A model generated the notes under the pieces. That model searched no databases and was not told where the DNA came from. It saw nothing but the letters and a program-made list of their open reading frames with translations. This document shows positions 1,752-62,010 of a stretch of DNA of 64,000 nt, one piece after another. Position 1 is the stretch's first letter. Each line of letters opens with the position of its first letter. This DNA comes from an uncultured Verrucomicrobiae bacterium (lineage in GTDB: Bacteria > Verrucomicrobiota > Verrucomicrobiia > Chthoniobacterales > UBA10450). Both the position numbers and the translations under genes were made by a program. The stretch covers positions 32,001 through 96,000 of the forward strand of contig CAVSDR010000002.1 of NCBI GenBank assembly GCA_963726745.1, in the 5' to 3' direction.

Positions 1752-3784
1752 ATGCACCCGGGACGACTCAACTTTCGCGTGGAAGCGACCGCCAGCGGTT
1801 CGCAGGCGCGCGCGGCCACCTTCCGCACGCTGCACAACGAAGTGCAGACGCCGCTCTTCATGCCCGTGGGCACGCAGGCCACGGTGAAGGCGCAGCTCAC
1901 GCGCACGCTCGAGGAAGCCGGGTCGCAGATCCTGCTGGCTAATACTTACCACCTGCTGCTGCGGCCGGGCGCGGAGGTCTTCCGCAAGCTCGGCGGGATT
2001 CACAAGTTCATGAGCTGGGAGCGCTCGGTCCTGACCGATTCCGGCGGCTTCCAGATTTTCTCCCTGCCGCACGCGCGCGAGATGAGCGAGGAAGGGGCGC
2101 GCTTCCGGAGTTATCTCGACGGCCGGCATGATCCACCTCACGCCCGAGCTTTCGATCGAAACGCAGCGCGCCATCGGCAGCGACATCATGATGGTGCTCG
2201 ACCAATGCATCGCCTCGACCGCGGACGAACCGACCGCGCGTCTGGCGATGGAGCGGACGCATCGCTGGGCCGCGCGCAGCCTGGCCGCGCGCGAGGATTC
2301 GCCGCAGGCGCTTTTCGGAATCGTGCAAGGCGCGCTCTTCCCCGAGCTCCGCCGCGAAAGCGCGCAGGCCTTGAGCGCCTTGGAATTCGACGGCTACGCC
2401 ATCGGCGGGCTCGCGGTGGGCGAGGGGAAAGAGGAGCGCGAAGCCATGTGCGAATTCACCGCCAATCTGCTGCCCCACGACAAGCCGCGCTACCTCATGG
2501 GCGTGGGCACGCCGCTCGACATCCTCGAGGCGGTGCATCGCGGAGTGGACATGTTTGACTGCATCATCCCCACGCAGGTGGCGCAGCGCGGCGGTGTCTT
2601 CACTTCGCGCGGTTACCTGCAAATGCGGCGCGGGATTTACAAGTTTGCCGACGAACCGCTCGACCCGGAATGCAATTGCCCGACCTGTGCGCGCTACTGC
2701 CGCGCCTACCTGCATCACCTCACGAAAACCGGCGAGACCCTCGGCTGGCAATTGCTCGGGAAGCACAACTTCCACTTCTACCACCAGCTCATGCGCGAGA
2801 TGCGCGCGGCGATTTTAGCCGACAAGTTCACCGAGCTTTACCGCGAGAAACGCGCGTTCCTCCACGCGGTCGACCCGGACAACCCGGTGCTTCCGCCACG
2901 CCGAAACAAGCCGCGCATCCGCTCGTTAGGCGCTTACGAGATCCACGTGGCGCGCGAAGGTTTTGCCAGCATCCGGCACGTGGCCTCGGGCGAAATCATG
3001 CACTCGCGCACCGACCCGATGGAGGAAGCGCGCCGGCTTTATGTGGAGCAATCGCGCCTGGCCGAGCGGCTGGTCGAGGCGGAGAGCCCGCTGGTTATCT
3101 GGGATGTCGGCCTGGGCGCGGCGGCGAATGCGATCGCGGCGATTCGTTGCTACGAAGCGTCGGAGAAGCCGCGGCCGCTGCGGATCATCAGCTTCGAGAA
3201 CGATCTTGATTCGCTCCGGCTCGCCTTTCAGCGAAGCGACCTCTTCCCTTACCTGCGCCACGGCGGGCCGGCCGGAGTTTTGAAAGAAGGCCGGTGGCAA
3301 TCGCGCACGCATCGCTGGCTTGAGCTGGGAACTGGTGCAGGGCGATTTCCCGGCGACAATCCCCGCCGCGCCCGCGCCGCCGGACCTGATCTTCTACGAC
3401 ATGTTCTCGAGCAAGACCTGCTTCGACCAATGGACGCGCGCGACCTTCGCGCAGCTCTTCGCGGCTTGCGCGGGACGGGCGGTGGAGCTCTTCACTTACT
3501 CGTGCTCGACGGCCGCGCGCGTGGCCTTGCTCGCGGCTGGCTTCCACGTCGCGCGCGGCCGGAACGCGGGCGAAAAAGAGGAAACCACGATCGCCTTCAC
3601 GCCGGCGGCTTACCGTGAAGGGCTCGACATCTTGTCGGCTAATTTCCTCGAGAAATGGCACCGCTCGGGCGCGAAATTTCCCAGCGAATTGCCCGAGGCC
3701 GAGCGCGCGGCCTTCGAGCGCCTGATCCTGGAGCACGCGCAATTCACGGGCGCGCCTGCAGTGCCCGCAGCGGACCCTCGATAG
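1752..3784 (+). CDS. tgt: tRNA-guanine transglycosylase fused to an MnmC/MnmD-like SAM methyltransferase domain; two +1 frameshifts (~2127, ~3320)
   Basis: [22 protein letters not shown] (frame of ORF 1506), then MVLDQC, GIVQG, GGLAVGE, RYLMGVG, DMFDC, CNCPTC (frame 2128), continuing with no stop into [30 protein letters not shown] follows in frame 3320. Confidence 0.88.
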
Positions 3785-61444: not shown

Positions 61445-62010
61445 CGCTTCAAGATGGCGGTGTTGGCCATGAGGGTGACCTGCTGGAACTCGGGGTTTTC
61501 GTTGACCGGACGGATGGTGACGTGGCTGACGTAGAGCAGGGGCTCGGAATTTTCCAGCTCGGCAATGGCTTTGCCTAACGAGGCGTAGTCCACCTGCGGA
61601 AGTTCGACCGTCCAGGAGTAGCGATTCCAATTGGCCAGCTCGGCCTCGGGGTAAGACGAAGTGTTGGCGAGGCGGGCCGAGGCTTTGTCGATCTCCTTTT
61701 GGGCGAAGAACGCTTTCAGGTGCGGCGGGAACCAGGCAATGGGCGCGCCTTCGGGAGAAAGTTTCTCGAAGAGGGCGTAGCGGGTGGTCGCGGCGCTGGC
61801 TTCGGTCTCGAGCCGGGTGGCCTTGGAGATATTCGTCTTCGAGGAAGCGAGCTTGCCCTGGAGATCTTCGATCGATTTTTCGACCGTGGCCCGGGTCTTG
61901 GCGAGCGGGGCGAGGAAGAAATTCAGGTAAACGTAGATCAGGACGATGAAGCCCATCCCGCTAAGGACGATTTTCTGGAGCTGGTCTTTGCTGAGCTTTG
62001 ATTTGGTCAT
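61441..62010 (-). CDS. PilO/GspM-like inner-membrane protein
   Basis: N-terminal TM, coiled coil, Y..LG..IAELEN pattern; operon position. Confidence 0.65.
   Translation of the reverse strand: MTKSKLSKDQLQKIVLSGMGFIVLIYVYLNFFLAPLAKTRATVEKSIEDLQGKLASSKTNISKATRLETEASAATTRYALFEKLSPEGAPIAWFPPHLKAFFAQKEIDKASARLANTSSYPEAELANWNRYSWTVELPQVDYASLGKAIAELENSEPLLYVSHVTIRPVNENPEFQQVTLMANTAILKR

What the first reader, a model, noticed from the sequence alone, without database searches (positions are those of the whole stretch)
2922..61582. Window-wide over-represented motif CGACTYGTTAGGC embedded in genes: candidate new DNA uptake or recognition sequence
SEEN: the core TYGTTAGG occurs 39 times by my count. 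On the + strand it is near 2922, 5216, 9038, 10110, 13041, 13895, 17657, 22269, 25529, 26007, 26446, 33444, 35956, 36723, 36775, 37656, 40369, 42209, 54284, 56288, 56563 and 60422 (22 copies). As the reverse complement CCTAACRA it is near 3900, 10456, 12192, 12639, 15283, 18264, 24325, 28605, 29390, 34582, 39020, 42955, 43567, 48321, 53086, 53713 and 61573 (17 copies). A zero-order estimate at ~66% GC gives about 2 expected. Most copies extend to CTYGTTAGGC and several to CGACTYGTTAGGC. Nearly all lie inside CDSs and are read in different frames: TCG/TTG-TTA-GGC (SLG/LLG in tgt, hutH, valS), CTC-GTT-AGG (LVR in hutU, nagZ), GGC-CTA-ACG (GLT in glyQS, hutG), CCT-AAC-GA (PNE/PND in murI, tig) and CGT-TAG as the stop of hutI and the ketosynthase. 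They use TTA, CTA and AGG codons that look rare elsewhere in the window, so the signal is at the DNA level, not the protein level. KNOWN: short, non-palindromic, unpolarised, gene-embedded repeats at roughly 1 per kb are the hallmark of Neisseria DUS and Pasteurellaceae USS, whereas Chi and KOPS are strand-polarised and cyanobacterial HIP1 is palindromic. INFERENCE: this is a DUS-like self-DNA tag, or a site for a chromosome-organising protein or modification enzyme. I know of none described for this lineage.
Basis: partly seen in the sequence, partly recalled or inferred. Interest (0 to 1): 0.9.

Follow-up and report, generated by a model that had tools for sequence, protein, structure and literature searches.

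The report
Integron-core DNA word saturating a genome
This soil bacterium and its whole family have written one short DNA word about two thousand times through their genes, and the word matches the crossover point of their gene-cassette (integron) sites, so a still unknown reader seems to link chromosome-wide tagging of own DNA with gene capture.

Summary
TYGTTAGG occurs 39 times in the window against 1.2 expected. It occurs 1,643 times in the 3.41 Mb genome, on all 7 contigs. The strict core is TCGTTAG, followed by (G)C. It lies on both strands, in all four stop-free frames, and is 20 times above a synonymous-codon null. It shows no replichore polarity and supplies about 10% of stop codons.

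Of 401 genomes sampled across the phylum, only this family is strongly enriched. Within the family nearly every genus is enriched, with 9 to 1,749 copies per genome.

The core equals the crossover junction CTCG|TTAG(GC) of the integron attC and attI sites of this order. That includes this genome's own integrase-less cassette array.

The integrase is neither necessary nor sufficient for the dispersed copies. The copies are not pasted from cassettes.

Best reading, with confidence 0.4: an uptake-sequence-like word spread by biased transmission, whose reader recognises the integron core.

The parts
2923..2930 (+). word copy TCGTTAGG, sense in tgt-like CDS 2128-3618
3901..3908 (-). word copy TTGTTAGG (full 13-mer), in Ser/Thr kinase-TPR CDS 3744-6083(-)
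5219..5226 (+). word copy (full 13-mer), antisense in kinase-TPR CDS 3744-6083(-)
9039..9046 (+). word copy in hutH-like CDS; specific to this lineage, relatives read GCGCTCG../GCATTGAGT
10113..10120 (+). word copy, intergenic between hutH and hutU
10457..10464 (-). word copy in hutU CDS; same place in G011 and G013
12193..12200 (-). word copy in arginase-family (hutG-like) CDS 11750-12664
12640..12647 (-). word copy (full 13-mer) in arginase-family CDS
13042..13049 (+). word copy in hutI-like CDS; relatives read GCG CTG AAA (A-L-K) where this genome reads TCG TTA GGC (S-L-G), with no indel
13896..13903 (+). word copy whose TAG is the stop codon of the hutI-like CDS 12661-13902
15284..15291 (-). 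word copy, intergenic upstream of clpP
17660..17667 (+). word copy TTGTTAGG (full 13-mer) in cinA CDS
18265..18272 (-). word copy in cinA CDS; same place in G010, G011 and G013
22271..22278 (+). word copy in GH3 (nagZ-like) CDS; same place in G007, G013 and L001
24326..24333 (-). word copy TTGTTAGG in ychF CDS; same place in G007, G010 and G013
25530..25537 (+). word copy in CDS 25328-26401(-), no Pfam match
26008..26015 (+). word copy in CDS 25328-26401(-)
26447..26454 (+). word copy, intergenic
28606..28613 (-). word copy in P-type ATPase CDS 28527-30980(-)
29391..29398 (-). word copy in P-type ATPase CDS
33447..33454 (+). word copy in M3 peptidase CDS 33400-35604(-); same aligned place in G037, G042 and G043
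34583..34590 (-). word copy TTGTTAGG in M3 peptidase CDS
35957..35964 (+). word copy in ketoacyl-synthase CDS 35633-36784
36725..36732 (+). word copy in ketoacyl-synthase CDS
36778..36785 (+). word copy (full 13-mer) whose TAG is the stop codon of the ketoacyl-synthase CDS
37657..37664 (+). word copy in TPR-protein CDS 36792-39362(-)
39021..39028 (-). word copy in TPR-protein CDS
40370..40377 (+). word copy in CDS 40110-40679(-), no Pfam match
42210..42217 (+). word copy in own-called CDS 41214-42731(+), no Pfam match; the gene call is uncertain
42956..42963 (-). word copy, intergenic by my gene calls but inside the alternative ORF 42728-44506
43568..43575 (-). word copy in own-called CDS 43155-43874
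48321..48328 (-). word copy TTGTTAGG in MscS-like channel CDS 47924-49627(-)
53087..53094 (-). word copy in class II aminoacyl-tRNA synthetase (glyQS-like) CDS 51858-53228
53714..53721 (-). word copy TTGTTAGG (full 13-mer), intergenic
54287..54294 (+). word copy (full 13-mer) just upstream of the called valS start
56291..56298 (+). word copy TTGTTAGG in valS CDS 54323-58174
56564..56571 (+). word copy in valS CDS
60425..60432 (+). word copy TTGTTAGG in the C-terminal piece of cstA (60227-60976)
61574..61581 (-). word copy in CDS 61441-62010(-), downstream of pilM

Best explanation
The motif is a family-wide genome word with strict core TCGTTAG plus (G)C; in this genome it extends to A-C-TCGTTAGGC. 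It is kept at about one copy per 1.7 kb by a sequence-specific reader that gives DNA with the perfect word a transmission advantage (molecular drive). The best-known mechanism of this kind is sequence-biased DNA uptake followed by homologous recombination, as with DUS and USS. The word was not invented freely. It is the crossover junction (core site, R box: CTCG|TTAGGC) of the integron attC/attI sites that circulate in this bacterial order. I therefore infer that the family evolved a reader tuned to the cassette junction, and that the chromosome filled with the word as a by-product. Shown here: the DNA-level enrichment, its anatomy, its phylogenetic spread, its identity with the junction, and its independence from the integrase gene. 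Inferred: the drive, uptake as its route, and the direction from integron core to genome word.
For: DNA-level pressure. CDS hold 1,152 copies against 57 under a synonymous shuffle. SLG is written TCGTTAGGC in 419 of 730 cases although TTA is 3% of Leu codons, and PNE is written CCTAACGAG in 145 of 236. The tripeptides SLG (730 against about 455 expected) and PNE (236 against about 95) are themselves in excess.

Writing without regard to content. All four stop-free frames are used. The two stop-bearing frames end up as the stop codon of 277 of 2,661 own-called genes.

DUS/USS-like layout. 48.7% and 49.0% of copies lie on the + strand in windows of positive and negative GC skew. All contigs carry about 25 copies per 50 kb. 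Close pairs are too few: 5.5% lie within 200 bp against 11.3% expected. A 25-kb gap is a 58% GC O-antigen/polysaccharide cluster.

Lineage trait with dialect-like flanks. All 151 family genomes (34 genera) hold 9 to 1,749 copies of the 10-mer. 12 other families of the order hold 0-14. Elsewhere in the phylum the 8-mer runs at about 5-20% of its reversed control. Position -3 prefers C here and T in genus g15. High density clusters in one clade: all 9 dense genomes sit in a 13-genome clade, and 0 of 500 shuffles are as clustered.

Maintenance. Of 9 window sites aligned to G013, 3 are identical and 1 matches 8 of 9 bases, at 71-80% overall DNA identity.

Identity with the integron junction. The junction was read in 17 attC of G043, 16 of G000, 4 of 6 attI and in attC arrays of G022 and G464.

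The junction is older than the word. G022 (another family) and G464 carry such arrays and an integrase but only 14 and 9 copies of the 10-mer. G022's listed places lie on three array contigs and beside its integrase, and at least 5 of G464's 9 are attC ends.

Uptake hardware is present: ComEC, DprA, three secretins, ten PilB/PilT-type ATPases, an HHH_3 ORF, and pilM in the window. Published work shows that transformation feeds cassettes to chromosomal integrons in Vibrio (PMC12614218, abstract read).
Against: No uptake or transformation data exist for this uncultured lineage. Competence genes are equally present in relatives poor in the word (ComEC in 33 of 34 genus genomes), so they explain none of the variation. 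No ComP-type receptor was found: the best ComP_DUS match is 21.9 bits against a cut-off of 27.3. Unlike USS as I recall it, singly mismatched copies at core positions are not in excess: 97.5 per Mb here against 108 per Mb in the word-poor relative G002. Unlike DUS as I recall it, there are no inverted pairs acting as terminators. Earlier AI notes of this scan report the same word in another phylum (not tested here), which fits a species-specific self tag poorly. The -3 preference of the genome word differs from the att junction in g15, so the same-reader argument rests on 7-9 bases.
Confidence: 0.4

Rival explanations
1. The integron integrase, or a close tyrosine-recombinase relative, is itself the reader. 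On this view the dispersed words are single R-box or attG-like secondary sites that accumulate through an integrase-dependent process such as binding, abortive strand exchange or secondary-site recombination.
For: The strict core TCGTTAG equals the invariant junction of both attC and attI, and attI does not travel with cassettes. Integrases insert cassettes at short double-stranded genomic attG sites with consensus GWT (bioRxiv 10.1101/2022.09.11.507474, passages read). This genome holds cassette arrays at two loci. The left boundary of the C4 mini-array is an attI-like AATTCTCG|TTAGGT.
Against: No integrase was found in this genome: the best match is 80 bits against a cut-off of 265, at 94.7% completeness. 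Nothing integrase-like lies beside the array. Yet the word shows no decay. Integrase presence is unrelated to word density. In the genus it occurs in both the dense and the sparse groups. In the family, integrase-positive genomes (n=92) have a median of 39.6 copies per Mb and integrase-negative genomes (n=59) have 34.5, Mann-Whitney p=0.10, with kin not independent. 9 of 15 genomes from other families of the order have an integrase but no dispersed word. No known integrase reaction writes a core site without inserting DNA, and 8 of 8 aligned sites show no indel. GTTAGAT is as common as GTTAGGC in arrays, but TCGTTAGAT occurs 7 times against 1,312 for TCGTTAGGC.
Confidence: 0.22
2. The word is the binding site of a chromosome-organising or other DNA-binding protein and is kept by direct selection at each site. 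Integron sites in this order would merely share or mimic that host sequence.
For: Spacing is even at short range. Some sites are conserved at orthologous places. The word is ancient across the family.
Against: Selection per site among about 2,000 sites would be very weak, while the pressure seen overrides codon use and changes amino acids. Accumulation at stop codons fits blind writing better than placed sites. The att junction exists in families that lack the dispersed word, and GTTRRRY is the general integron core (PMC3053210, passages read). So the host-first direction is unlikely.
Confidence: 0.15
3. The word is produced by a modification and repair bias, as proposed for cyanobacterial HIP1. 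A methyltransferase marks the word, and a mismatch-specific repair converts near-cognate sequences into it.
For: Recognition looks all-or-none. The only core one-off variant in excess is TTGTTAGGC (121 against about 5 expected), a C-to-T change at the CpG that would fit 5-methylcytosine deamination. Several N6 methyltransferases of unknown specificity are present.
Against: No Vsr was found. The single C5 methyltransferase has a full-length relative only in G013 among 33 other genus genomes, plus fragments or weak matches in five more. The deamination product is enriched rather than removed. The word is non-palindromic.
Confidence: 0.1
4. The word is a Chi-like or KOPS-like signal read by RecBCD/AddAB or FtsK.
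For: It is short, non-palindromic, over-represented and specific to a lineage.
Against: It shows no strand polarity: 48.7% against 49.0% on the + strand in the two skew classes. At 20-25 times chance, the enrichment is far above what I recall for Chi.
Confidence: 0.03

Closest known systems
DNA uptake sequences: DUS of Neisseriaceae and USS of Pasteurellaceae
   Same: A short non-palindromic word at about one copy per 1-2 kb on both strands. It has no replichore polarity, is written into genes in several frames at a cost in codons and amino acids, is rare in an island-like locus, and is shared by a whole family with differences in flanks and density.
   Different: Uptake is untested and no ComP-type receptor was found. 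One-off copies at core positions are not in excess. There are no inverted terminator pairs. The word equals an integron core site. The DUS/USS properties used for comparison are recalled, not read here.
Integron core site GTTRRRY / R box of attC and attI, and genomic attG secondary sites
   Same: GTTAGGC is an instance of GTTRRRY (PMC3053210, passages read). The strict core TCGTTAG equals the invariant CTCG|TTAG junction of this order's attC and most attI sites. attG sites are short double-stranded genomic sites containing GWT (bioRxiv 10.1101/2022.09.11.507474, passages read).
   Different: Only 16 strictly defined attC sites exist among 2,025 core copies here. The dispersed copies have no inverse core, no hairpin and no cassette, and no integrase was found in this genome. 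Their 3' preference (GC far above AT) is not that of cassette starts.
HIP1 (GCGATCGC) of cyanobacteria
   Same: A hyper-abundant, lineage-wide word with sharp edges, present in genes and kept at orthologous places.
   Different: HIP1 is palindromic. No linked methyltransferase or Vsr was found here. The HIP1 properties are recalled.
Chi and KOPS
   Same: Short, non-palindromic and over-represented.
   Different: Those signals are strand-polarised with replication. This word is not.

Membership tests
DUS/USS-type uptake sequence | Short non-palindromic word far above chance, genome-wide and at the DNA level | tested here: met
   1,643 copies of TYGTTAGG. CDS hold 1,152 against 57 under a synonymous shuffle.
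DUS/USS-type uptake sequence | Both orientations equally frequent, with no replichore polarity | tested here: met
   48.7% and 49.0% on the + strand in the two GC-skew classes.
DUS/USS-type uptake sequence | Shared by a family, with dialects and variable density | tested here: met
   All 151 family genomes hold 9-1,749 copies. Other families hold 0-14. The -3 preference differs between g1 and g15.
DUS/USS-type uptake sequence | Preferential uptake or transformation of DNA carrying the word | not testable with these tools
DUS/USS-type uptake sequence | Competence machinery present | tested here: met
   ComEC, DprA, secretins, PilB/T-type ATPases, an HHH_3 ORF and pilM. These genes are widespread and do not discriminate.
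DUS/USS-type uptake sequence | Specific receptor of the ComP type (Neisseriaceae) | tested here: not met
   The best ComP_DUS match is 21.9 bits against a cut-off of 27.3.
DUS/USS-type uptake sequence | Excess of singly mismatched copies (USS) or inverted pairs as terminators (DUS); both features are recalled | tested here: not met
   One-off copies at core positions are at background level. 57 pairs lie within 120 bp, with no preferred inverted geometry.
Integron attC site | GTTRRRY core paired with an RYYYAAC inverse core across a 57-141 nt imperfect palindrome | tested here: not met
   This holds for 16 sites in arrays. It does not hold for the roughly 2,000 dispersed copies, which have no conserved flanks or partner.
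Integron (complete) | intI gene next to attI and a cassette array | tested here: not met
   In G000 the best TIGR02249 match is 80 bits against a cut-off of 265, and no recombinase lies beside the array. So the array is an integrase-less attC cluster. The feature is met in relatives.
attG secondary integration site | Cassette insertion observed at the site | tested here: inconclusive
   The C4 mini-array starts at AATTCTCG|TTAGGT. No empty site could be found in relatives, because only attC matched.
Chi/KOPS | Strand polarity with replication | tested here: not met
HIP1-like palindromic word | Palindromic word linked to a cognate methyltransferase | tested here: not met
   The word is non-palindromic. 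The C5 methyltransferase is not co-distributed and no Vsr was found. N6 enzymes were not resolved.
REP/MITE-type repeat | Conserved flanks or hairpin, mainly intergenic | tested here: not met
   There is no information beyond about 13 nt, and about 70% of copies lie inside CDS.

The most novel reading that the evidence does not exclude
This abundant soil family may run a DNA-uptake or recombination system whose specificity is aimed at the integron cassette junction, a kind of cassette fishing. Cassettes would then be taken up preferentially, and the chromosome would have filled with about 2,000 copies of the junction word as a by-product. A related reading is that the dispersed core sites let a recombinase exchange chromosomal segments like cassettes. 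Either way, uptake-sequence biology and integron biology would be mechanistically linked for the first time.
Probability: 0.2. Interest if true: 0.95.

Novelty: new variant of a known kind. Interest (0 to 1): 0.8.

Why it matters
Hyper-abundant self words are experimentally understood in only two proteobacterial families. Here one is found in the family of uncultured soil Verrucomicrobiota whose closest named records are called Spartobacteria and Candidatus Udaeobacter.

The word is the recombination core of the lineage's integrons. This gives a concrete and testable link between genome-wide DNA tagging and gene-cassette capture. It bears on how cassettes spread in soil and on where att sites come from.

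Within one family, genomes range from 3 to more than 400 copies per Mb while sharing the same attC type.

There is a practical side too. The word distorts codon use, tripeptide content and stop-codon choice, so it affects gene calling and compositional binning in these MAGs.

Tried and rejected
- **Motif strings in papers:** only primers and unrelated sequences turned up. Searches for 'DNA uptake sequence' with Verrucomicrobia and for Udaeobacter with 'natural competence' gave nothing relevant (listings only).
- **A replacement dialect in the word-poor relative G002 (360 kb sampled of 3.7 Mb):** none of comparable density. There is only a weak GAAGTAGG family, 26 copies against 3 expected.
- **Copying from cassettes as the source of the word:** rejected. 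TCGTTAGAT occurs 7 times against 1,312 for TCGTTAGGC, although arrays use both about equally. 8 of 8 aligned sites show no indel.
- **Integrase as necessary or sufficient:** rejected.
- **Empty-site test for cassette insertion at a word:** the flanks found no match in relatives, so there is no verdict.
- **Covariation of the -3 base between the genome word and the att junction in genus g15:** not seen. The word prefers T there, while the junction keeps C.
- **A dif-like inverted pair of half-sites:** only 9 and 8 scattered pairs, with no unique site.
- **Modification and receptor candidates:** Vsr, co-distribution of the C5 methyltransferase and the ComP_DUS receptor were all negative.
- **Single-gene map of word gain and loss:** only 10 occurrences at 4 aligned places in 29 genomes, too few for rates.
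Full report
**1. The observation**

TYGTTAGG occurs 39 times in the window: 22 on + and 17 on -, 31 TCG and 8 TTG forms. Dinucleotide-preserving shuffles give 1.22, with a largest value of 4 in 100. The 13-mer of the title has 7 perfect copies and 28 with up to two mismatches, against 2.56 expected.

The window is G000:C2:32001-96000 of a 3,406,779-bp assembly in 7 contigs at 62-64% GC. Genome-wide there are 1,643 TYGTTAGG (782 + and 861 -) and 2,025 copies of the heptamer TCGTTAG. 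TCGTTAG is the most over-represented heptamer of the genome under a maximal-order Markov model. Every contig carries about 25 copies per 50 kb.

**2. Anatomy of the word**

- The logo around GTTAGG is W-n-n-A-C-T-C-G-T-T-A-G-G-C, with no information beyond about 13 nt. It is therefore a word, not a REP or MITE.
- 87% of all GTTAGG are preceded by TC.
- Single-base variants show a strict core TCGTTAG. At those six positions, one-off copies (332 in all) are no more frequent than in a word-poor relative: 97.5 against 108 per Mb.
- The positions after the core are tolerant: GC 1,312, CC 240, GG 134, TC 123, AC 80, GT 52, AT 7.
- The only core variant in excess is TTGTTAGGC, 121 copies against about 5 expected.

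**3. Relation to genes**

This section uses my own crude gene calls: 2,661 genes covering 83.6% of the genome.

- The word sits in all four frames that contain no stop: SLG/LLG 542, LVR 104, PNE/PND 233 and xLTx 268.
- A shuffle that keeps every protein and each gene's codon usage gives 57 copies in CDS, against 1,152 observed.
- SLG is encoded TCGTTAGGC in 419 of 730 cases although TTA is 3% of Leu codons. The tripeptides SLG and PNE are themselves in excess.
- In the two frames with a stop, the word ends genes. 108 genes stop at CGT-TAG and 169 at C-TAA-CGA, together 277 of 2,661.
- Once these are set aside, the truly intergenic share is about 15%, equal to the non-coding share. My first figure of '30% intergenic or edge' is therefore not an intergenic enrichment.

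**4. Layout**

- Orientation does not follow GC skew: 48.7% and 49.0% of copies are on + in windows of positive and negative skew.
- Neighbouring copies avoid each other at short range: 5.5% lie within 200 bp against 11.3% expected.
- There is no preferred inverted-pair geometry.
- The largest gap (25 kb, 58% GC) is an O-antigen/polysaccharide cluster.

**5. Phylogenetic spread**

The closest named records are titled Spartobacteria, Verrucomicrobiae, Candidatus Udaeobacter and Chthoniobacter.

- The 10-mer CTCGTTAGGC occurs 51-1,749 times in the 34 genomes of the genus.
- It occurs 9-1,749 times in 151 genomes from 34 genera of the family.
- It occurs 0-14 times in 12 other families of the order.
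- In 401 genomes sampled across the phylum, only this family is strongly enriched for CGTTAGGC: G000 has 1,346 and G342 has 2,140. Elsewhere the word is usually 5-20% of its reversed control. One other genus (g65) is mildly raised.
- On a single-gene (M3 peptidase) tree of 29 orthologs, all 9 dense genomes fall in one supported clade of 13, and 0 of 500 label shuffles are as clustered.

G001, G008, G034, G444, G448 and G560 are flagged unpublished. They enter only as counts, and no conclusion rests on them alone. The dense group of the genus as I list it includes G001 and G034.

**6. Evolutionary behaviour**

- In the syntenic hut-clp region, many G000 copies are specific to its lineage. They arose by substitution, including amino-acid change: relatives read GCG CTG AAA where G000 reads TCG TTA GGC.
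- No indel is seen at any of the 8 sites spanned by ungapped alignments.
- Of 9 sites aligned to G013, 3 are identical and one matches 8 of 9 bases, at 71-80% overall identity.
- In the peptidase gene, all 10 occurrences lie in the dense clade, at 4 aligned places. Two of these places are shared by 4 genomes that are not each other's closest relatives on that tree.

**7. The integron link**

Earlier AI notes of this scan said that the same word is hyper-abundant in soil Gemmatimonadaceae and resembles the crossover end of attC sites. I tested the second point in this lineage.

- Integron integrases (TIGR02249 over its cut-off) occur in 15 of 34 genus genomes.
- Next to one of them, a cassette array shows 17 attC sites of the form RYCTAAC-CAKGCGATGSAGCGAAC ... 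GTCGCTSATCTTG-nn-CTCG|TTAG-R-Y.
- G000 itself has 14 such sites in one array (C6, about 735.9-744.9 kb) and 2 more on C4. Their bottom strand folds into the R-box, spacer and L-box hairpin expected of attC.
- G000 has no integrase over the cut-off and none beside the array.
- 4 of 6 attI junctions read TCTCG|TTAG.
- DNA of G000's attC finds relatives at 82-92% identity in 31 of 34 genus genomes.

The invariant junction CTCGTTAG thus coincides with the strict core of the genome word. GTTAGGC is an instance of the general integron core GTTRRRY (PMC3053210, passages read).

**8. What the link does not mean**

- Only 16 of 2,025 core copies are in strictly defined attC sites.
- Arrays use GTTAGAT about as often as GTTAGGC, yet TCGTTAGAT is nearly missing genome-wide, so the word is not copied from the cassette pool.
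- Integrase presence does not track word density in the genus. In the family, integrase-positive genomes have a median of 39.6 copies per Mb and integrase-negative genomes have 34.5, p=0.10. The genus-level Spearman correlation is 0.30, p=0.25. Kin are not independent.
- 9 of 15 genomes from other families of the order have an integrase.
- G022, from another family, has the same attC type ending in (A/T)CTCGTTAGGC, but only 14 copies of the 10-mer. Their listed places lie on the three array contigs I read and next to its integrase.
- G464, of this family, has an integrase and arrays but only 9 copies.

The junction is therefore older and wider than the dispersed word. Something specific to the family spreads the word.

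- In genus g15 the genome word prefers T at -3 while its att junction keeps C. The shared part is therefore 7-9 bases.

**9. Mechanism**

Four features point to a reader that favours the perfect word, acting through biased transmission rather than site-by-site selection:

- strong, all-or-none pressure at the DNA level;
- blindness to coding content;
- pile-up at stop codons;
- family-wide persistence with variable density.

The only established process of that kind is sequence-biased uptake plus recombination, so I rank it first at 0.4. The uptake hardware is present, but it is equally present in word-poor relatives. No ComP-type receptor was found.

The other readings and my weights:

- The integrase as reader, 0.22. 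It is weakened by section 8.
- A nucleoid-type binding site under selection, 0.15.
- A modification and repair bias, 0.10. There is no Vsr, the C5 methyltransferase is not co-distributed, and the N6 enzymes are unresolved.
- A Chi-like signal, 0.03. It fails on polarity.

**10. Comparison with what is known, and novelty**

In layout the word behaves like DUS or USS. It differs in three ways: it is identical to an integron core, it lacks an excess of one-off copies, and it lacks terminator pairs.

Published work shows that integrases use short genomic attG sites (bioRxiv 10.1101/2022.09.11.507474, passages read). It also shows that transformation feeds cassettes to chromosomal integrons (PMC12614218, abstract read).

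I found no paper describing a hyper-abundant core-site word. Only listings and the passages named were read, and no supplements were opened. The cross-phylum claim rests on unchecked AI notes and was not tested here.

Noticed in passing
window 1934, 2815, 3634, 4920, 6696, 6946, 12382, 16439, 18641, 19607, 22426, 23076, 32767, 36328, 36676, 50406, 50996, 56534, 60215 (9-mer starts): A second, longer hyper-abundant word, R-A-W-TTAGCC-R-R-C-R-M-n-W-T-S. TTAGCCRRC has 1,139 copies genome-wide against 190 for its reversed control, and 19 in the window. It lies on both strands and in several frames. Among 34 genus genomes it is enriched only in G000, G011 and G015, and G015 is not close to G000 on the peptidase tree. 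It is therefore independent of the first word and patchy.
   Followed up: partly
outside the window: G000:C6 about 735,900-744,900 (- strand) and G000:C4:150072-151067: Integrase-less attC clusters: 14 and 2 strictly defined attC sites of about 123 nt. The large array lies next to an ActP-like symporter gene with no recombinase beside it. The C4 mini-array begins at an attI-like AATTCTCG|TTAGGT.
   Followed up: yes
window 60191-60193: The cstA gene is split into two same-frame ORFs (58934-60193 and 60227-60976) by an in-frame TGA. A copy of the second word follows at 60215. This could be a pseudogene, an assembly error or recoding; it was not resolved.
   Followed up: partly
whole genome G000 (own gene calls): Stop-codon use is TAG 935, TGA 886 and TAA 840 of 2,661 genes, which is unusually rich in TAG and TAA for a 64% GC genome. 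The first word supplies 277 of these stops.
   Followed up: partly
G000:C7:60030-85007: The largest stretch without the word (25 kb, 58% GC) is a surface-polysaccharide/O-antigen cluster. It holds a DegT aminotransferase, epimerases, glycosyltransferases, an ABC-2 exporter and a Wzy_C domain. Only the first 18 kb of the gap was annotated (L149 covers C7:58001-78000).
   Followed up: yes
G002 sample, loci L081-L099: The word-poor relative G002 has a weak word of its own around GAAGTAGGAAGT: GAAGTAGG occurs 26 times in 360 kb against about 3 expected.
   Followed up: no
genomes G384, G396, G411 (family f23, genus g65): One other genus of the phylum has mildly raised CGTTAGGC (145-251 copies, about equal to its control, where 5-20% is usual).
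   Followed up: no
window 62661-63743 (-): A pilM gene (type IV pilus assembly) lies at the window's end. Two downstream ORFs without Pfam matches may be pilN and pilO.
   Followed up: no
window 54323-58174 (+): The valS ORF is 1,283 aa as called, and its first Pfam match starts at residue 430. Either there is a long N-terminal extension or the start is called too far upstream.
   Followed up: no
G000:C4:371899-372432 and G000:C6:336-1251: N6 DNA methyltransferase matches lie at the very end of contig 4 and the very start of contig 6. They may be one gene, or one restriction-modification locus, broken by the assembly.
   Followed up: no
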